Below are positions 4,142 to 10,765 of a stretch of DNA of 26,750 bases, piece after piece. Positions within the stretch are counted from its first letter, which is position 1. Each line of letters starts with the position of its first letter. The notes beneath the pieces are model-generated. The model was given only the letters and a program-made list of their open reading frames with translations, had not been told where the DNA came from and ran no database searches. This DNA is from a virus. Taxonomy: Duplodnaviria > Heunggongvirae > Uroviricota > Caudoviricetes. The position numbers and the translations under genes were made by a program. Location of the stretch: IMG/VR virus record IMGVR_UViG_2529293065_000012; one strand, 5' to 3'.

Positions 4142-4162
4142 GAAACCAGAACATGCACACAC

Positions 4163-4284
4163 AAAAAAACCGCTTGCCATGCCGCAATCAGTCAGGTTAC
4201 ATTTCCGCTGCACCTCACAAAACGGGTGTCGGGTTTCGCAGCCTGCTGACTACACAAGCGCACAACCGCGCCAGCGGTTTTTTT
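4163..4284 (+). ncRNA. Rod-like structured element closed by a 12-nt terminal inverted repeat; candidate ncRNA or single-strand DNA signal
   Basis: AAAAAAACCGCT (4163-4174) is the exact reverse complement of AGCGGTTTTTTT (4273-4284). Nested helices are AGTCAG 4190-4195 / CTGACT 4246-4251, GCTGC 4207-4211 / GCAGC 4238-4242, and CACC 4211-4214 / GGTG 4225-4228. No credible ORF is present. Confidence 0.35.
4264..4284 (+). terminator. Intrinsic terminator-like hairpin plus T7 run
   Basis: AACCGC-GCCA-GCGGTT is followed by TTTTT. Its 3' arm and T-run are shared with the long-range pairing to 4163-4174, so the two folds are mutually exclusive. Confidence 0.5.
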
Positions 4285-4325
4285 GTGCGTACTGTATTGC
4301 CACGTTTTTTTCGCGTCAGAATTAT

Positions 4326-4401
4326 GGCGGGGCGTACGGGGCCGACTTCGGTCGGGCCGGGTTCTTGTGTAGCCGGTACTGCGAACCTCGTACGTCTCGC
4401 C
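4326..4401 (+). other. 76-nt branched structure closed by a 13-bp stem, containing a C(UUCG)G tetraloop hairpin
   Basis: GGCGGGGCGTACG (4326-4338) pairs with CGTACGTCTCGCC (4389-4401), giving 11 Watson-Crick and 2 G-U pairs. The inner hairpin is CCGAC-TTCG-GTCGG at 4342-4355. GCCACCCA follows the stem. Confidence 0.35.
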
Positions 4402-4463
4402 ACCCACAGTTTCGCAGCTCTGGATGGTGAGTTTTCACAACTTACTACACAAGGGGCCACACC

Positions 4464-4655
4464 ATGGCAAACCGCAAACCACACCGCGCTATCGCGGAGC
4501 GTCGTCACATCCAGACTGAAATCAACCGCAGACTTTCCCGCGCATCACGCGTCGCGCAAATCATGCACATCAATATGCTGCATGAGCGCAGCCACGCACT
4601 ATCAAACATTTATTCCGCCTCTGTTTTCAGCTATCTGGCGGATGATCTGCACTAG
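4464..4655 (+). CDS. Small basic protein with an arginine-rich N-terminus (63 aa)
   Basis: An AGGGG SD lies 7 nt before the ATG. The N-terminus is MANRKPHRAIAERRHIQTEINRRLSR. No family was recognised, and it could be non-coding. Confidence 0.45.
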   Translation: MANRKPHRAIAERRHIQTEINRRLSRASRVAQIMHINMLHERSHALSNIYSASVFSYLADDLH

Positions 4656-4766
4656 CTTCAACAGCTCATCCAGCAGCAAAACAAACTCCATTAATTCCTG
4701 TTCCGGGCCTTTCCTGCACCTTGCGGCGGGAGGCCTTCGCACATCTGTAACAAGAGGATTGCCGCA

Positions 4767-5132
4767 ATGATTCTCGCCAACGACTTTCTTGAATACCTGC
4801 TCAACACAGAACGTGATCTTGCCGCTCGCGTGCGTGATCGTTATGACATGTACCTGAAATCCCTGCCTGTACCGCAGCTCGCTGACGGAAAGATTGTTAT
4901 TGATGGTCGCTACATGATTGACAGCCACGAGGGAAATTACAGGCTTTACCGCATTGAAGGTGGCACCCCGTCCGTTATTGGCATTTACCAGCGCCCATCC
5001 TCTGCAATCGTCGATGTGATTGCCGACAGCATCCGCATCACACATCGCCATGCCGACACAGAAGACACCGTGCTGGAAATTCAGCGGCTGGCTACAGTCT
5101 GCCGCGACACCCTGAATGGCATGTCGAAGTAA
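4767..5132 (+). CDS. Hypothetical protein immediately upstream of A (121 aa)
   Basis: An AAGAGGA SD lies upstream. The ORF ends 6 nt before the A start. No family was recognised. Confidence 0.65.
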   Translation: MILANDFLEYLLNTERDLAARVRDRYDMYLKSLPVPQLADGKIVIDGRYMIDSHEGNYRLYRIEGGTPSVIGIYQRPSSAIVDVIADSIRITHRHADTEDTVLEIQRLATVCRDTLNGMSK

Positions 5133-5138
5133 ATCACT

Positions 5139-7946
5139 ATGACGGCAGAGTACATCAGGGACTGGCAACAACCGCGCCACGCAGTGGGGCGTGAAGGAAC
5201 GGGGATCCCCGCTCCTGAATCCGCGCTTTCCTCCTGGCTGGATGCCTACCGGGTAGAGAACGAGCGCTGCCAGGAAATGGCTGATGCGGCGTTCTCCGCA
5301 ACGCCGCTGGGCAACCTGATTAATAAAAGCCTGGACGCACAGGAAAAACAGGACAAAACCATCACACTGGCAGGAGACGCCAGAAAACAGGCACGCGGCG
5401 CGGTGGATGAAGCCATGGCTTCGCTGCGCCTGCTGCCGTCCTATCTGCGCGATCCGCTTATTCGCCCCCTCTCCTTCCTGCGCAAAAAACAGGAAGCCGA
5501 TCGTCAGAAAGGCAAAAAGAGCTGGCAGGCTGAACGCTACGCGCGCGGAAACCTGCGCAAAATATTCGAACGTCTGGAGCGCACCGATCACCGCTGGCTG
5601 ACACAGGGTTATCGCTCCCTTGCCGGACGCGAACGCCTGGATGATTTGCTTTACCTGCCGCAGCTCAACCAGCACCAGATACAGACGCTGGCCACCATGA
5701 CGGCGGCGATGTTCAGCAGCACCTTCGAAAAACTCTGCGATGGCTTTGGCGCGACCGATGGCGAACTGACCATGGATGTAACGCTGAAGGCGTATCAGAT
5801 GCTGGCCCGCATGGGGTTACACCTGCACGCCATGCCGCCACATTACGAAGCTCTGAACAAGAGCGATCCGGATACGGAACTGTTACCGGGCGCAATCCTT
5901 CGCCTGACCTGTGCGGAATGGTGGAAACGCAAACTGTGGCTGTTACGTTGCGAGTGGCGGGAAGAACAACTCCGCGCCGCCTGTCTGGTTTCCAGAAAAA
6001 CATCGCCCTATCTGAGCCAGGACGCGTTAAGCGAGTTTCGCGCACAGCGCGAGAAAACACGCGATTTCCTGAAAAGTTTCATGCTGGAAAACGAAGACGG
6101 GTTCACGATTGATCTCGAGACAGTGTATTACGCGGGAGTAAGTAACCCGGTTCACCGTAAGGCAGAAATGATGGCCACCATGAAGGGGCTGGAACTTCTG
6201 GCCGAAGCCCGTGGCGACAAAGCGGTGTTTCTGACCATCACCTGCCCGTCAAAATACCACGCCACAACAGAGAACGGTCATCCGAATCCCAAATGGAACG
6301 GGGCCACCATGCGCGACTCCAGCGATTACCTGGTTAACACGTTTTTTGCGGCGGTCCGCAAGAAACTGAACCGCGACGGCCTGCGCTGGTATGGCATCCG
6401 CACGGTGGAGCCTCACCATGACGGCACCGTGCACTGGCATATGATGGTCTTTGCTCATCCGGAAGAAATCGACACCATTGTGTCCCACACCCGCGATATT
6501 GCCATTCAGGAAGATCGTCACGAGCTGGGTGATGATATTACCCCACGCTTTAAGGCGGAGTACGTCGACGGCTCAAAAGGCACGCCAACCAGCTACATCG
6601 CCACCTACATCGGAAAGAACCTGGACAGCCGCGCCGTAGATGGCATCGACCCGAAAACGGGCAAGCCACGCGTTGACCACGAAACCGGAAAATCAATGGC
6701 CGAGAGCGTGGAACGCGCCATCGGCTGGGCGCGCCTTCACCGTGTCCGCCAGTTCCAGTTCTTTGGTATCCCCTCCCGTCAGGTGTGGCGTGAACTCCGC
6801 CGCCTTGCCAGCCAGATGGCACGCAACCCGGAAGGCCCGCAACGGCTGAAGGATGACGCAATGGATGCGGTACTCGCTGCCGCTGATGCCGGATGTTTTG
6901 CCACCTACATAGAGAAACAGGGCGGCGTACTTGTTCCACGCCAAGACTACCTGATTCGCACCGCCTACGACCTCGCAGATGAGCTGAACGATTACGGCGA
7001 ACAGAGCGTACAGATTTACGGGATCTGGTCGCCGCTCATCGGGGAGTCTTCCCGCGTATGCACGCATCCGGATAACTGGAAGCTGGTAAGACGCAAACCG
7101 GAAGCGGAAGACAGCTCCCACGAAAATGGTTTTGACCTTCAGGGCGGCCCTGCCGCCCCTTGGACTCGTGGCAATAACTGTCCCCGTGTACAGGAAACGG
7201 ACAACAACGGGACAGAACAGCCGGAAGAACGGCCAGCACCGTGGCCGCAGCTTCCTGACGGCGTTGACGTGAATGAATGGATGCGCTCACTGAAACGGCA
7301 CGAACGCCGGGCGCTGATGCGTTCGCTGCGTGACAAACAGGCAAAAAACAGCAGTGATGAAATGCAGAACTGGACACAGAGCCGCAAACAGCCACAGCCT
7401 TTGCCTGATAACCACGAGTTACTCGCTAAAGAATGGCGGGAGTCTGCTGAATCTCTCGGCCTGCATATCGGTGAACAGCAGATGCAGCACCTGTTACGGG
7501 GCGGCAGTCTGTACGTTGACGGCAGCATCATTGCACCGCAGGGATTTGAAATTGTACGCAAACCGGATACCCGCCCGGACAGCCGAATCACGCAGCTCTG
7601 GCAACGCCTGAGTCGTAATCACGGCGTAAGCAGCACGGAGATCCGCCATAACCCGGTCGCCAGCTATCTGGAACAACTAGAGGCATCAGACCCTGAAGCC
7701 GCCGCACGCCTGGCATCCACACTTCAGCAAGACCAGAACACCATGAAAACACCAGTTACCGTACTTTCTGACATGCTGCGCGCCATCCGCGACGCAGAGC
7801 ACGCACAGAGAATCAGTGAAACCACTGAACGCGCCCGCCGCAAAGCAGACCTGCTGCGGGGTGGCCTGAGCAGTGGAAACAAAAAACAGACAAAAACGGG
7901 ATTCACAAATCCCGTAAATGAGCAAAAAACGCGCCGCGATATATGA
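5139..7946 (+). CDS. A: Rolling-circle replication initiation endonuclease (P2 gpA family), 935 aa with a long C-terminal tail
   Basis: FLTITCPSKYH, VEPHHDGTVHWHMMVF (HUH-type metal motif) and YIATYIGKN (paired catalytic Tyr) parallel P2 A FITLTCPSKYH, VEPHHDGTPHWHMMLF and YIAKYISKN. The start codon is uncertain because the SD is weak. Confidence 0.9.
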   Translation: MTAEYIRDWQQPRHAVGREGTGIPAPESALSSWLDAYRVENERCQEMADAAFSATPLGNLINKSLDAQEKQDKTITLAGDARKQARGAVDEAMASLRLLPSYLRDPLIRPLSFLRKKQEADRQKGKKSWQAERYARGNLRKIFERLERTDHRWLTQGYRSLAGRERLDDLLYLPQLNQHQIQTLATMTAAMFSSTFEKLCDGFGATDGELTMDVTLKAYQMLARMGLHLHAMPPHYEALNKSDPDTELLPGAILRLTCAEWWKRKLWLLRCEWREEQLRAACLVSRKTSPYLSQDALSEFRAQREKTRDFLKSFMLENEDGFTIDLETVYYAGVSNPVHRKAEMMATMKGLELLAEARGDKAVFLTITCPSKYHATTENGHPNPKWNGATMRDSSDYLVNTFFAAVRKKLNRDGLRWYGIRTVEPHHDGTVHWHMMVFAHPEEIDTIVSHTRDIAIQEDRHELGDDITPRFKAEYVDGSKGTPTSYIATYIGKNLDSRAVDGIDPKTGKPRVDHETGKSMAESVERAIGWARLHRVRQFQFFGIPSRQVWRELRRLASQMARNPEGPQRLKDDAMDAVLAAADAGCFATYIEKQGGVLVPRQDYLIRTAYDLADELNDYGEQSVQIYGIWSPLIGESSRVCTHPDNWKLVRRKPEAEDSSHENGFDLQGGPAAPWTRGNNCPRVQETDNNGTEQPEERPAPWPQLPDGVDVNEWMRSLKRHERRALMRSLRDKQAKNSSDEMQNWTQSRKQPQPLPDNHELLAKEWRESAESLGLHIGEQQMQHLLRGGSLYVDGSIIAPQGFEIVRKPDTRPDSRITQLWQRLSRNHGVSSTEIRHNPVASYLEQLEASDPEAAARLASTLQQDQNTMKTPVTVLSDMLRAIRDAEHAQRISETTERARRKADLLRGGLSSGNKKQTKTGFTNPVNEQKTRRDI
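7892..7919. repeat. Copy 1 of a 28-bp direct repeat containing the 20-bp palindrome ACGGGATT-CACA-AATCCCGT
   Basis: The palindrome lies at 7896-7915, inside the last codons of A. It is repeated 73 bp downstream. Confidence 0.8.
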
Positions 7947-7964
7947 AGCGCGCACAAAACAGGC

Positions 7965-7992
7965 GAAAACGGGATTTAAAAATCCCGTAAAC
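7965..7992. promoter_or_regulatory. Copy 2 of the palindrome (ACGGGATT-TAAA-AATCCCGT); candidate parC / ParR operator upstream of parM
   Basis: The palindrome lies at 7969-7988, about 35 bp upstream of the parM ATG. It overlaps a -35-like TTTAAA (7975-7980) that is followed by an AT-rich -10-like region. Confidence 0.4.
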
Positions 7993-8022
7993 GATTAATT
8001 AATCAACATAAGGAAAAGCTAC

Positions 8023-8982
8023 ATGAAAATTTGTATCGACGACGGCTCCACCAACATCAAGCTGGCATGGACTGAGAACGGCGAATGCCGCAACGCCATC
8101 AGCCCGAACAGCTTCAAGTCGGAATGGTCTGCGCCGTTCGGTGTCACGCAGCCCGCGAACTACATGCTTGATGGCGTGCGCTATGGTTTTGATCCGGTCA
8201 GCGATCGCTTTGTCCAGACGACCGACACGCAATACCAGTACAGCGATGTGAATGTCATTGCCATTCATCACGCGCTGGTCAAATCAGGCATCACGCCACA
8301 GGAAGTGGATGTGGTTGTCACCCTGCCACTGAGCGAGTATTTCGACACAAACGCACAGCCGGATATGACCAACATCAACCGCAAAAAAGCGAACGTCATG
8401 CGCCCGGTGGAGTACCAGAACGGTGAGGCATTCACTATCCGTAACGTGCGGGTTATGCCTGAATCCATTCCGGCTGGCTTTAAGGCACTGGCTAACATGA
8501 GTCCGTTTGAATCCCTGCTGATTGTGGATTTAGGCGGAACCACGCTGGATGTGGCAAAGGTTCAGGGGCAACTGGCAGGTATCAGCCAGGTGTTTTGCGA
8601 TCCACACGTAGGCGTTTCTCTGATGGCCGATGCCGTACTGTCGGTGATGGCCACTAACGGTATGCGCACCAGTCACCACATCGCCAATACCATTATCGAA
8701 CATCGCCATGATGAAGCCTGGCTGCGCCAGCACATCCACAATGACGCGCATTACGCCAGCCTGATGGCGGTTATTCGTGAAAAGGAAGAAACACTGAAAC
8801 AACGCGTGATCCGCGCGCTGGCGGTTTTTTCGGGTTACGGGCGGGTGATGGTTGTCGGTGGCGGGGCGGAGATTGTGGCACCCGCTATCCGCGAAGCCTG
8901 CGGAGTTAATGCGACTTTCATCGCGGACGGGGTGCCACAGTTTGCTCTGGTTAATGGGCTGTACGCAATGGACAAGGAGTAA
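8023..8982 (+). CDS. parM: ParM/StbA actin-like plasmid segregation ATPase (319 aa)
   Basis: Colinear by eye with R1 ParM along the whole length: IDDGSTNIKL, ISPNSFK.EW, QYSDVNV.A.HHAL, RKKAN, VMPESIPAG, DSLLI.DLGGTTLD, GISK/Q, GVSL, FSGY..VMV.GGGAE, LVNG.Y. Confidence 0.9.
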   Translation: MKICIDDGSTNIKLAWTENGECRNAISPNSFKSEWSAPFGVTQPANYMLDGVRYGFDPVSDRFVQTTDTQYQYSDVNVIAIHHALVKSGITPQEVDVVVTLPLSEYFDTNAQPDMTNINRKKANVMRPVEYQNGEAFTIRNVRVMPESIPAGFKALANMSPFESLLIVDLGGTTLDVAKVQGQLAGISQVFCDPHVGVSLMADAVLSVMATNGMRTSHHIANTIIEHRHDEAWLRQHIHNDAHYASLMAVIREKEETLKQRVIRALAVFSGYGRVMVVGGGAEIVAPAIREACGVNATFIADGVPQFALVNGLYAMDKE

Positions 8983-8986
8983 ACCA

Positions 8987-9301
8987 ATGACGACATCAAC
9001 CAGACGGATAAGTTTCTATCTGAAGCCAGACGCCGTCAAGAGTGAACAAGAGGCGTGCAATTACCTCGATAGCCTGCCAGCCTCCGAACGCAGCCGCGCG
9101 CAACGCGCGGCCTTTCTGGCCGGACTGGCACTCATAAAACGCAACCCAGCATTTGCCTACTGGATGGCCGAATGGCCAGAGGATAACCTCCCCTTCAATA
9201 CCATTAGCACCAAGGAAACATACCAAGATAATCCGCCTAGCGGAATTGAATGCAATTTTTATAAAATAAAAAAGAATATTCAGACCTTATTCCCTGAATA
9301 A
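8987..9301 (+). CDS. parR: ParR/StbB-like centromere-binding adaptor (104 aa)
   Basis: RRISFYLKPD...LDSLPASERSRAQRAAFLAGLAL parallels R1 ParR RRTIAFKLNPD...LDSIPQGERSRLNRAALTAGLAL. The start was taken at the ATG at 8987, 5 nt after the parM stop, rather than the track start at 8852, which overlaps parM. Confidence 0.75.
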   Translation: MTTSTRRISFYLKPDAVKSEQEACNYLDSLPASERSRAQRAAFLAGLALIKRNPAFAYWMAEWPEDNLPFNTISTKETYQDNPPSGIECNFYKIKKNIQTLFPE

Positions 9302-9350
9302 TCTGATAATTGAATTTGAACTAATAAAACACATACCAACACATCATTCT

Positions 9351-9373
9351 GGCACCCTTGCTAACAGGGTGCC
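9351..9373. terminator. Hairpin between the convergent parR and 280-aa genes (no clear U-tract)
   Basis: GGCACCC (9351-9357) pairs with GGGTGCC (9367-9373) around a 9-nt loop. It sits between two converging stop codons. Confidence 0.35.
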
Positions 9374-9385
9374 AATGATTTCAAA

Positions 9386-10228
9386 TCATGATGAAATTGC
9401 CGAAGTTTTTTTATCGTGCTGAAGTACCGCAAATGCCATCAAAACCTCAAGAGAATAGCGGCGATAATACTTAACAAAACCATAATAAAATACTCGAGAT
9501 GCAGCAAGAAAAAACAAGAAAAGAGGACCAAAAGGTAACAATCTGATATTTATATCTATTAAGTAAGATAGAGGGGCTAGACACATAATCAACCAGACTG
9601 AGGCGAGAAAAACGAATGTAATGTTTCTACAAAAACCATATAGAGCAACATAGTTTTGTATTTTCAACTGATGATTTTTCGAATGTTCATACACATAATG
9701 ATAAGCAAGACGAAAAAGATCTCCCCTCAACCCTTTGCGTCGATACAACGTAGAAACAGAAAAATTATTTATATAGCCATTTCGTATTTGCGGCCAAAAG
9801 GCCTTAATAAGTATAGGATGTAGTGTGGTTTTATGACACTCAGCTTTATCAAGAATTGATACAGGAAACAAAAAAACTCTACGAATAAAATTAAATATCT
9901 GGAATCCTGTACCACGGCGTTTTATTTTCAGGGGGTTTTTCGGGGAAAACAGATAAGTCGAAGGATATCCAAGCTTACTGTTCATGTATTTTTCAATTAA
10001 ACAGGATGATAGAATAGATATGAAGTGACCTAAAATATATGATAGAACGATCAATGTCACATACATAAACACACTTATTATTTCTTTATATTTCAAGATG
10101 TGGTTTAGAATACTCTCGACATAACCAGGGTTAATTTCAATAGAAAACAAAAAAAGGATAAACAGGAATAATCCACCTGGAATTAGATACCCCAAAAAGT
10201 CATAAAATGAAAACGGATTCTGTGTCAC
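9386..10228 (-). CDS. Unknown polytopic membrane protein, about 4 TM helices with a central soluble region of about 120 aa (280 aa)
   Basis: A GTG start at 10228 is preceded by an AGGGGGAA SD. Hydrophobic segments are FLGYLIPGGLFLFILFLFSI, IISVFMYVTLIVLSYILGHFISIL, ITFVFLASVWLIMCLAPLSYLI and LLPFGPLFLFFLAASRVFYYGF. The region is AT-rich (19/60 G+C hand-counted at 9601-9660). No family was recognised. Confidence 0.75.
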   Translation of the reverse strand: MTQNPFSFYDFLGYLIPGGLFLFILFLFSIEINPGYVESILNHILKYKEIISVFMYVTLIVLSYILGHFISILSSCLIEKYMNSKLGYPSTYLFSPKNPLKIKRRGTGFQIFNFIRRVFLFPVSILDKAECHKTTLHPILIKAFWPQIRNGYINNFSVSTLYRRKGLRGDLFRLAYHYVYEHSKNHQLKIQNYVALYGFCRNITFVFLASVWLIMCLAPLSYLIDINIRLLPFGPLFLFFLAASRVFYYGFVKYYRRYSLEVLMAFAVLQHDKKTSAISS

Positions 10229-10267
10229 ACTTCCCCCTGTGCTACTTGTAAATTAAAGAGTCAAACA

Positions 10268-10765
10268 TTATTTGTTTTTCCGTAAAGGATTAGCTTTCCA
10301 TCTTCTTACTAACCATTCGAATTCTTGATATGTAGTATCCGAATTAATGCTTTCTCTGATTGCTTTAATTAATGGCTCGGCAATATCATATGTCTCTACA
10401 ACTGTTGTGTAAGATGTTCTTTTTATCATTTTTTCATCATAAATACCTTCACGAATACTTACAGCAACTCGCTCGTAAAAATTTAAAATATATTGAAATT
10501 TTCGACGCTCGGCCATTTCCTCATCTGTTATTGTACAACCATCACAAGGAAAAACATAAGAACGAAATGATTTGCCTGAACGATGCACTTGTTTCAGGGT
10601 ATGCAATGACTCTATATATTGCATATCTTGCCGACTCTCAAAAAGAAAGTTAGCCGTTTGAGTTTTCTTTGCGGTACGCACATTGTAGATAATGGTTCCA
10701 ATGGCAACCAAAACGCCAAGCAGAACAATAGCATTGCTGATGATTTGTAGTGTTATTGGGTTCAT
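10268..10765 (-). CDS. Unknown N-terminally anchored protein, 1 TM plus a helical domain, possibly DUF4760-like (165 aa)
   Basis: The N-terminal helix is ITLQIISNAIVLLGVLVAIGTIIYNV. The core ILNFYERVAVSIREGIYDEKMIK resembles what I remember of DUF4760, but this is unverified. It is the first gene of an AT-rich two-gene operon, 39 nt upstream of the 280-aa gene. Confidence 0.75.
   Translation of the reverse strand: MNPITLQIISNAIVLLGVLVAIGTIIYNVRTAKKTQTANFLFESRQDMQYIESLHTLKQVHRSGKSFRSYVFPCDGCTITDEEMAERRKFQYILNFYERVAVSIREGIYDEKMIKRTSYTTVVETYDIAEPLIKAIRESINSDTTYQEFEWLVRRWKANPLRKNK

What the first reader, a model, noticed from the sequence alone, without database searches (positions are those of the whole stretch)
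7892..9301. R1-type ParM/ParR actin-like partition module with paired palindromes in an integrase-bearing P2-like prophage
- **Similarity:** the 319-aa protein is colinear with plasmid R1 ParM through all the actin-fold motifs I can recall. The downstream 104-aa protein shares the ParR N-terminal ribbon-helix-helix region (SERSRAQRAAFLAGLAL against GERSRLNRAALTAGLAL).
- **Why it is odd:** P2-type phages integrate through Int and are not known to need a segrosome. The element may be able to persist as an episome (phage-plasmid behaviour), may use actin-like filaments to position replicating or packaging DNA, or may carry the module as an exclusion or addiction function.
- **Upstream palindromes:** two copies of a 20-bp palindrome (ACGGGATT-N4-AATCCCGT at 7896-7915 and 7969-7988) lie 73 bp apart. 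The second overlaps a promoter-like sequence for parM and the first lies inside the last codons of A.
- **Contrast with R1:** this architecture differs from the R1 parC iteron array and is a candidate novel centromere/operator.
Basis: partly seen in the sequence, partly recalled or inferred. Interest (0 to 1): 0.7.

Follow-up and report, generated by a model that had tools for sequence, protein, structure and literature searches.

The report
ParMR partition cassette in P88-like prophage
A P2-like (phage P88-type) E. coli prophage carries an intact plasmid-style actin (ParM/ParR) DNA-segregation cassette with a probable two-palindrome centromere; it is real and conserved, but its presence was already annotated and published, and its role in an integrating phage is untested.

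Summary
parM (8023-8982) is 47% identical to R1 ParM over its full length. parR (8987-9301) is a Plasmid_stab_B ribbon-helix-helix adaptor with the R1-like C-terminal tail. Two ACGGGATT-N4-AATCCCGT palindromes (7896-7915, 7969-7988) lie 73 bp apart and occur nowhere else in the window.

The window is a phage P88-like (Xuanwuvirus) prophage. The same module is found in 1303 of 5426 complete E. coli genomes, 1441 of 1443 copies chromosomal. RefSeq already names it ParM, and Rousset et al. [quoted passage not shown] Its presence and the episome idea are therefore not new.

What I add:
- The cassette is a core module, not hotspot cargo. Phage ParMs form one clade across Escherichia, Plesiomonas, Hafnia, Serratia and Enterobacter, always downstream of gpA, and are under strong purifying selection (parM pN/pS 0.07).
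- A YGGG-N10-CCCR pair at about -128/-56 from parM is kept in three lineages, including Hafnia, where an extra ORF separates it from gpA. This supports a parC unlike R1's 11-bp iterons.

The parM promoter claim is not supported. Stable plasmid life is unlikely: there is no plasmid replicon, integrase is kept, and the copies are integrated. It most likely acts on extrachromosomal phage circles.

The parts
5139..7946 (+). gpA replication endonuclease (935 aa). It is the upstream neighbour on the same strand, and its last 17 codons contain palindrome 1. Residues ~792-935 are specific to the P88 lineage.
   Evidence: Pfam Phage_GPA 2.4e-130. All 14 phage records with >=84% gpA identity carry parMR; the next-best gpA is 42% identical and covers residues 9-791 only.
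7880..7921 (.). Repeat unit 1 of the candidate centromere (parC). It is A-rich and contains the 20-bp palindrome ACGGGATT-CACA-AATCCCGT (7896-7915); the conserved core is CGGG-N10-CCCG.
   Evidence: A YGGG-N10-CCCR motif sits at -126 from parM here, -132 in Plesiomonas and -129 in Hafnia.
7953..7994 (.). Repeat unit 2 of the candidate parC, with palindrome ACGGGATT-TAAA-AATCCCGT (7969-7988). It is 73 bp from unit 1 and lies nearest to parM, so it is a possible operator.
   Evidence: The motif sits at -53 here, -60 in Plesiomonas and -56 in Hafnia.
7993..8014 (+). Conserved ATTAATCAA box (inside the GATTAATTAATC palindrome, 7993-8004) followed by the AAGGA ribosome-binding site (8010-8014). It may be the -10 region of a weak promoter; this is unproven.
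   Evidence: ATTAAT-AA is invariant in the E. coli/Plesiomonas/Hafnia alignment. No consensus promoter was called.
8023..8982 (+). parM, an actin-like ATPase (319 aa).
   Evidence: All 84 relatives examined are intact at 319 codons; pN/pS 0.07.
8987..9301 (+). parR, a ribbon-helix-helix adaptor (104 aa). Its parts are the N-terminal ribbon TRRISFYLKP, a variable linker, and a C-terminal tail KKNIQTLFPE that aligns with the R1 ParR tail KKNAMKLIN.
   Evidence: pN/pS is 0.14-0.15 for the RHH domain, 0.6-0.7 for the linker and 0.07-0.28 for the tail.
9352..9374 (.). Inverted repeat GGCACCCT-N7-AGGGTGCC between parR and the convergent hotspot genes. It may mark the end of the operon.
   Evidence: Read from the sequence; arms seen (I16, D18). 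It was not called as a terminator.

Best explanation
This is a complete, selectively maintained type II (ParMRC, R1-family) DNA-segregation cassette. It is a core, vertically inherited module of the P88-like branch of P2-like phages and sits at the end of the early (replication) gene block just after gpA.

Inferred mechanism:
- ParR dimers bind through their N-terminal beta-ribbon to the two CGGG-N10-CCCG palindromes. Each 20-bp palindrome fits a dimer-of-dimers. The sites are 73 bp apart, about seven helical turns, in DNA with phased A-tracts.
- The ParR C-terminal tail then captures the ends of ATP-ParM filaments.
- Filament growth between two ParR-parC complexes pushes two DNA molecules apart.
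- The parM-proximal site probably also lets ParR autoregulate.

Inferred role: more than 99% of copies are integrated and the phage has no plasmid replicon. The substrate must therefore be the extrachromosomal circular phage genome after infection or induction. From established knowledge, P2-type replication produces monomeric circles. The likely role is positioning or dispersal of replicating circles, by analogy with AlpAC of prophage CGP3, and possibly short-term inheritance of unintegrated copies.

Shown: gene identity, conservation, selection, motif conservation and genomic context. Inferred: DNA binding, filament function and biological role.
For: - Family assignment.
- Catalytic and nucleotide-binding motifs of ParM are intact.
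- The ParR C-terminal K/R-x-N-[AI]-x-x-L-F-P motif, with an invariant Asn, aligns with the R1 ParR tail.
- All 84 parM copies are intact with pN/pS 0.07. 82 of 83 parR copies are full length (102-104 aa), with constraint on the RHH domain and tail but not the linker.
- The module is present in 1303 of 5426 E. coli genomes. The lineage's gpA 3' half is found in 1355 genomes (>=80% coverage), so the cassette is rarely lost.
- ParMs from P2-like prophages of five genera form one clade, and all lie between gpA and portal on the gpA strand.
- The YGGG-N10-CCCR pair keeps its position and 72-73 bp spacing in three lineages whose ParMs are 62-63% identical. Each locus has 0-1 other matches.
- The Serratia/Enterobacter subclade has a different ParR ribbon (NRKISFYL) and a different conserved upstream palindrome.
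- No + strand terminator lies between gpA and parM.
- Precedent: AlpAC (PMC4446434).
Against: - Nothing has been tested for binding, filaments or phenotype.
- Within E. coli, the palindrome arms are no more conserved than synonymous sites (pi 0.05-0.095 against pS 0.073).
- Many natural variants carry one-sided changes that break the symmetry, and these do not track the two ParR alleles.
- Two sites is far fewer than the ten iterons of R1.
- No promoter was detected, so expression timing is unknown.
- The E. coli ParR is shortened in the region that in other ParRs follows the RHH domain.
- A lytic cycle of well under an hour gives no obvious need for segregation.
Confidence: 0.55

Rival explanations
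1. Facultative phage-plasmid. The cassette lets P88-like phages persist for many generations as a low-copy episome, as an alternative to integration. This is the speculation of both Rousset et al. and the first reader.
For: - A 34,461-bp circular 'plasmid' record (NZ_CP148288.1) is a whole P88-like genome. A 100% identical 10-kb early region (parR to int) is integrated in another strain.
- P88 and that record also carry a Hok/Gef gene, so two R1-like stability loci occur together.
- The suggestion has been published.
Against: - 1441 of 1443 E. coli places are chromosomal.
- In PLSDB only one record is a complete phage-sized circle and one a 26.8-kb partial; the other five are 228 kb-1.4 Mb replicons.
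- An integrase-bearing P2-like phage without parMR (pENTAS02, 32.6 kb) is also filed as a plasmid. Such records therefore do not depend on parMR.
- A genuine P2-like phage-plasmid (Arsenophonus paPv10) has RepA plus an AAA family ATPase (presumably ParA-like) and no annotated integrase, which P88-like phages do not.
- No replicon other than the rolling-circle gpA is annotated.
Confidence: 0.15
2. The palindromes are not a centromere. They are RNA hairpins or terminators (on the minus strand each is followed by a T-run), or sites used by gpA or replication. ParR would bind elsewhere or nowhere.
For: - Palindrome 1 scores as an intrinsic terminator on the minus strand.
- The hairpins fold at about -11 kcal/mol, with z-scores of -3 to -4.3.
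- Palindrome 1 lies inside gpA.
- There is no extra within-species conservation.
Against: - In Plesiomonas and Hafnia only the outer GGG/CCC bases and the spacing are kept. The first copy in each does not fold better than shuffles (z -0.09 and -0.40); the second copies fold weakly better (z -2.26 and -1.45).
- Natural variants show one-sided, non-compensatory changes.
- No minus-strand gene lies upstream that would need termination inside the parM leader.
- In Hafnia the pair is separated from gpA by an extra ORF.
- Rfam finds nothing.
Confidence: 0.15
3. The cassette is host- or competition-directed cargo. Candidates are incompatibility against ParMRC plasmids, interference with other phages or satellites, or action on the chromosomal prophage locus. 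In this view it does not move the phage's own free DNA.
For: - It lies at the edge of the gpA-to-portal region that Rousset et al. define as a defence hotspot.
- parR shows allelic replacement, with recombination breakpoints inside the gene.
Against: - Unlike hotspot cargo, it is fixed in the lineage and co-phyletic with P2-like phages across genera. The truly variable cargo starts after parR.
- There are no PADLOC hits.
- The upstream repeats share nothing with R1 iterons, so centromere incompatibility with IncF plasmids is not expected.
Confidence: 0.1

Closest known systems
R1/NR1 parA (ParM-ParR-parC; StbA-StbB) type II plasmid partition system
   Same: - Same gene order: repeats, then parM, then parR.
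- ParM is 47% identical and colinear with R1 ParM.
- ParR shares the RHH N-terminus (40% over 68 aa) and the C-terminal tail motif.
   Different: - It sits in an integrating P2-like phage downstream of gpA.
- The candidate centromere is two 20-bp palindromes 73 bp apart, not ten 11-bp direct iterons flanking a promoter.
- ParR is shorter (104 aa against 116 aa), with a divergent middle region.
- The ParMs form a separate phage clade.
AlpA-AlpC-alpS of Corynebacterium glutamicum prophage CGP3 (Donovan et al. 2015, PMC4446434)
   Same: It is an integrated prophage with an actin-like protein plus a co-transcribed adaptor that binds upstream of its own operon. According to the paper's abstract, the system acts on excised circular phage DNA and is needed for efficient replication.
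   Different: - The host is Gram-positive and the prophage is large and cryptic.
- Sequence relatedness to the present ParM/ParR was not tested here.
- The present proteins are bona fide R1-family members.
ParMR of phage-plasmids, e.g. the StbA-type partition of P1-like phage D6
   Same: The ParM is phage-borne and 48% identical.
   Different: D6 is an extrachromosomal phage-plasmid with its own replicon. The present element integrates and has none.
pSK41 ParR / Arc-type RHH operators
   Same: From established knowledge, RHH dimers bind adjacent half-sites about one helical turn apart as a dimer-of-dimers. The 20-bp palindromes have that geometry.
   Different: pSK41 parC is a tandem array of 20-bp repeats. 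Here there are only two separated sites, and binding is untested.

Membership tests
Type II (ParMRC) partition systems | Actin-fold ATPase ParM with phosphate-1, phosphate-2 and adenosine motifs | tested here: met
   Pfam StbA_N 8.6e-82 and ParM C-terminal domain 6.3e-69. R1 ParM structures, E 1.4e-92. 47% identity with DDGSTNIK, PESIPAG, DLGGTTLD and GGGAE conserved.
Type II (ParMRC) partition systems | Small ribbon-helix-helix adaptor ParR encoded directly downstream of parM | tested here: met
   Pfam Plasmid_stab_B 2.7e-29. pB171 ParR 2jd3, E 0.006. 40% identity to R1-type ParR N-terminus. The gene starts 5 nt after the parM stop.
Type II (ParMRC) partition systems | ParR C-terminal peptide that binds ParM | tested here: met
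   Tested at sequence level only. The tail KKNIQTLFPE aligns with R1 KKNAMKLIN, and the Asn is invariant in 9 ParRs. The tail is under purifying selection. Binding was not tested.
Type II (ParMRC) partition systems | Cis-acting centromere of repeated ParR sites immediately upstream of parM | tested here: inconclusive
   Two palindromes in 42-nt repeats are positionally conserved in three lineages. There is no extra within-species constraint and no binding data.
R1 parC type specifically | Ten 11-bp direct iterons in two clusters flanking the parA promoter | tested here: not met
   The R1-type plasmid shows 11-bp iterons with spacings 11/94/11. The window has no such array.
Type II (ParMRC) partition systems | ParR-repressed promoter within parC | tested here: inconclusive
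   No sigma-70 consensus match was found between gpA and parM. There is only a conserved ATTAATCAA box 10-13 nt after site 2.
Type II (ParMRC) partition systems | Stabilises an unstable replicon; ParM forms dynamically unstable filaments | not testable with these tools
   This needs plasmid-loss assays, polymerisation assays and microscopy.
Phage-plasmids | Autonomous plasmid replicon (Rep/ori) in the phage genome | tested here: not met
   No Rep other than the rolling-circle gpA is annotated in P88 or the 34.5-kb record. By contrast, Arsenophonus paPv10 has RepA and an AAA family ATPase (presumably ParA-like).
Phage-plasmids | Resides extrachromosomally in lysogens | tested here: not met
   1441 of 1443 places in complete E. 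coli genomes are chromosomal. Integrase is present.
AlpAC-type prophage actin systems | Early induction on excision and requirement for efficient phage DNA replication | not testable with these tools
   Only the gene position at the end of the early block, on the same strand as gpA, is known.

The most novel reading that the evidence does not exclude
An R1-family actin segrosome has been a fixed, co-evolving part of one branch of integrating P2-like phages across Enterobacterales. It works on the phage's own free circular genomes: either it organises rolling-circle replication and packaging templates in the cell, or it gives a short plasmid-like phase before integration or after excision. It would use a minimal two-palindrome centromere rather than an iteron array. 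That would make it the first ParMRC shown to serve a virus life cycle in Gram-negative bacteria, and a very small natural parC.
Probability: 0.3. Interest if true: 0.6.

Novelty: new member of a known kind. Interest (0 to 1): 0.35.

Why it matters
About a quarter of sequenced E. coli strains, including O157:H7, O145, O111, UTI89 and ST131 strains, carry this cassette in a chromosomal prophage. It is under strong purifying selection, yet nobody has shown what a plasmid segregation machine does for a phage that integrates.

Knowing the answer would say whether P2-like phages have a hidden extrachromosomal phase, or use cytoskeletal positioning during replication. It would also supply a compact two-site centromere for studying how few ParR sites can cap a ParM filament.

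The value lies in the open function. The existence of the genes is already on record.

Tried and rejected
- **Covariation of ParR alleles with palindrome variants.** There are two main parR alleles (P88-type TPEARKSGQR, window-type PASERSRAQR). They show no association with palindrome variants.
- **Within-species footprinting.** Diversity in the palindrome arms equals the synonymous level, so this gives no information at this depth.
- **Promoter search.** No consensus promoter lies upstream of parM.
- **Known RNA families.** None in 7700-9500.
- **Defence-system models.** PADLOC gives no hit for ParM or ParR.
- **Wider surveys.**
  - The genome-contig scan with ParM returned only 3 near-identical loci.
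  - The IMG/VR scan with the Hafnia ParM found nothing.
  - More distant lineages had to be reached through the protein search and contig look-ups.
  - ParMs at or below 50% identity on chromosomes turned out to be in an ICE (Dickeya) or an integrated plasmid (Mangrovibacter), not in phages.
- **The 34.5-kb 'plasmid' as evidence for an episome.** Its assembly is not in the E. coli genome collection, so I could not check for an integrated copy in the same strain. A parMR-less P2-like phage is also filed as a plasmid, so I did not count this record as support.
- **P2-like phages with a close gpA but no parMR.** None exist in the phage collection.
- **Literature.** The P88 paper, the phiSM paper and two recent P2-diversity papers say nothing on function.

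Full report
**1. What is in the sequence**

- The region holds two co-oriented genes just downstream of the P2-type replication gene A (5139-7946, 935 aa, Pfam Phage_GPA 2.4e-130).
- parM (8023-8982, 319 aa):
  - It matches Pfam StbA_N (8.6e-82) and the ParM C-terminal domain (6.3e-69).
  - It matches the solved R1 ParM structures (1mwk, E 1.4e-92, residues 2-316).
  - A plasmid ParM that matches the PDB R1 ParM sequence over its full length (E 2.7e-213) aligns with it at 47% identity over 318 residues with two gaps. The nucleotide-binding motifs are intact.
- parR (8987-9301, 104 aa):
  - It matches Pfam Plasmid_stab_B (2.7e-29) and weakly matches the pB171 ParR structure (E 0.006).
  - It is 40% identical to R1-type ParR over the N-terminal 68 residues.
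- The two palindromes (7896-7915 and 7969-7988):
  - They are the only matches in the window even with two mismatches allowed. No shuffle out of 100 gave two matches.
  - They lie within a 42-nt direct repeat with 73-bp spacing.
- The window as a whole is a P2-like prophage with integrase, C-type repressor, Cox, portal, terminase and a P2-type capsid protein.
The exception is the promoter: a consensus scan finds none between gene A and parM.

**2. What the element is**

- The region is 95-98% identical to phage P88 and its relatives (genus Xuanwuvirus, family Peduoviridae), including Citrobacter phage phiSM.
- In those records the genes are already annotated as 'plasmid segregation protein ParM' and 'partition protein'.
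- The module occurs in 1303 of 5426 complete E. coli genomes. 1441 of 1443 places are chromosomal, and it always lies next to a 'replication endonuclease'.
- I found no functional study. The P88 and phiSM papers and two recent P2-diversity papers are silent or list it only as a 'fitness factor'.

**3. It is a core module, not hotspot cargo**

- All 14 phage records whose gpA is at least 84% identical carry parMR. The next-best gpA is only 42% identical and lacks the C-terminal ~145 residues.
- In E. coli genomes the 3' half of this gpA type is found in 1355 genomes (at least 80% coverage), against 1272-1303 genomes for parMR.
- DNA similarity among relatives breaks down only inside or after parR. 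That is where the true variable region up to the portal gene begins.
- ParM relatives of 54-63% identity from Plesiomonas, Hafnia, Serratia and Enterobacter all lie between gpA and portal in P2-like prophages, on the gpA strand.
- ParMs at or below 50% identity that sit on chromosomes are in an ICE or an integrated plasmid.
- In a neighbour-joining tree the phage ParMs form one clade, apart from R1-type and other plasmid ParMs (no bootstrap).

**4. Selection**

- All 84 parM copies examined are intact at 319 codons, with pN/pS 0.07.
- 82 of 83 parR copies are full length (102-104 aa).
- In parR, pN/pS is 0.14-0.15 for the ribbon-helix-helix domain, 0.6-0.7 for the linker and 0.07-0.28 for the C-terminal tail.
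- The tail (KKNIQTLFPE) aligns with the R1 ParR tail (KKNAMKLIN), with an invariant Asn across nine ParRs.
- This is the pattern expected of a working adaptor with a DNA-binding head, a flexible linker and a ParM-binding tail.

**5. The palindromes**

- Within E. coli they are no more conserved than synonymous sites (pi 0.05-0.095 against pS 0.073).
- Variants carry one-sided changes that do not track the two parR alleles.
- Across lineages the picture is clearer:
  - A YGGG-N10-CCCR motif lies at -126 and -53 from parM in E. coli, -132 and -60 in Plesiomonas, and -129 and -56 in Hafnia.
  - Each 13-27 kb locus has 0-1 other matches (alignment).
- In Hafnia a 167-aa ORF separates gpA from the pair, so the sites go with parM and not with gene A.
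- Only the outer GGG/CCC bases and the spacing are kept. The first copies in Plesiomonas and Hafnia do not fold better than shuffled sequence, whereas the E. coli hairpins reach about -11 kcal/mol. This argues for a DNA site rather than an RNA hairpin or terminator.
- The Serratia/Enterobacter subclade has a different ParR ribbon (NRKISFYL instead of TRRISFYL). In the same place it has a different conserved element: a ~66-bp palindrome plus TTTAAACGGC.
- In IMG/VR, 74 of 79 loci with an exact palindrome have parM adjacent. Three are cut by contig ends, and two lie on contigs with no gpA or ParM match.
- An R1-type plasmid instead shows the classical 11-bp iterons in two clusters. The 'different from R1 parC' claim therefore holds.

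**6. How it most likely works**

- Each 20-bp palindrome has two half-sites about one helical turn apart. This is the geometry used by ribbon-helix-helix dimers-of-dimers (established knowledge for Arc and pSK41 ParR; inference here).
- The two sites are 73 bp apart, roughly seven helical turns, in DNA with A-tracts at about 10-11 bp multiples (read).
- I infer a small ParR-parC complex that captures ParM filament ends through the ParR tail and pushes two DNA molecules apart.
- The parM-proximal site is a possible operator.
- No + strand terminator lies between gene A and parM. In every lineage the genes follow the early replication genes on the same strand, so expression with the early genes on infection or induction is likely.

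**7. Which DNA is moved, and why**

- Stable plasmid life is unlikely:
  - The copies are integrated and integrase is kept.
  - No plasmid replicon is annotated.
- One 34,461-bp circular 'plasmid' record is a whole P88-like genome. A 100% identical early region (parR to int, 10 kb) is integrated in another strain.
- That record is weak evidence, because the integrase-bearing, parMR-less P2-like phage pENTAS02 is also filed as a plasmid.
- A genuine P2-like phage-plasmid from Arsenophonus has RepA plus an AAA family ATPase (presumably ParA-like) and no annotated integrase.
- The best-supported reading is action on free circular phage genomes. From established knowledge, P2-type replication yields monomeric circles.
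- The role would be comparable to AlpAC of prophage CGP3, which links excised phage DNA to actin-like filaments and is needed for efficient replication (PMC4446434).
- A short plasmid-like phase before integration or after excision remains possible.

**8. Verdict**

- This is a real, conserved and probably functional ParMRC cassette.
- Its presence and the plasmid speculation are already known.
- The two-palindrome centromere proposal and the evidence that the cassette is a clade-defining core module are modest additions that need experiments.
- Interest is moderate to low: 0.35.

Noticed in passing
window 4210-4407 (+): Rfam gathering-level hits to isrK (4210-4284, 62 bits) and C4 antisense RNA (4320-4407, 83 bits). 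They lie within or next to the Ash-family ORF 4153-4770. This is a P1/P7-type antisense control element in the early region of a P2-like phage.
   Followed up: no
L291 7929-8069 (P88 record 34928-35068); L208 1291-1431: P88 and the 34.5-kb circular record carry a Hok/Gef family gene near the ogr end. These phages therefore combine homologues of both classical R1 stability loci, parMRC and hok. That end of the genome lies outside the window.
   Followed up: partly
window 9386-10765 (-): The variable cargo between parR and portal consists of a 280-aa protein and a DUF4760 protein, convergent with parMR. The 280-aa protein has only a weak N-terminal PADLOC Csx27 hit (4e-5). Function is unknown; this is the position of the published P2 defence hotspot.
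   Followed up: partly
window 9041, 9132, 9183 (inside parR): DNA similarity to different relatives stops at discrete points inside parR. This gives two main ParR alleles and several linker variants on an otherwise conserved parM, suggesting recombination breakpoints within the gene.
   Followed up: partly
window 7512-7946 (gpA residues ~792-935): The C-terminal ~145 residues of gpA have no counterpart in gpA of other P2-like phages in the phage collection. gpA length also varies among parMR-bearing lineages, from 785 to 935 aa.
   Followed up: no
window 7993-8004: The perfect palindrome GATTAATTAATC lies between site 2 and the ribosome-binding site. Some relatives have GGTTAATTAACC, a change on both arms; others have a one-sided change. 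The ATTAATCAA core is conserved in Plesiomonas and Hafnia.
   Followed up: partly
one IMG/VR locus among L002-L081 (upstream list): One relative has a single hybrid palindrome. This is consistent with a deletion by recombination between the two 42-nt repeats, which also alters the gpA C-terminus.
   Followed up: no
L292 (Arsenophonus nasoniae paPv10, 33.8 kb): This is a P2-like phage genome with no annotated integrase; at that end of the genome it carries RepA and an AAA family ATPase. It appears to be a genuine P2-like phage-plasmid. Several similar 33-36 kb Arsenophonus records exist.
   Followed up: partly
L083 (NZ_JBQPOM010000071.1): A record titled Vagococcus sp. WN89Y (a Gram-positive genus) holds a 226-kb contig with a 97% identical E. 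coli-type ParM. This is probably contamination or mislabelling of the assembly.
   Followed up: no
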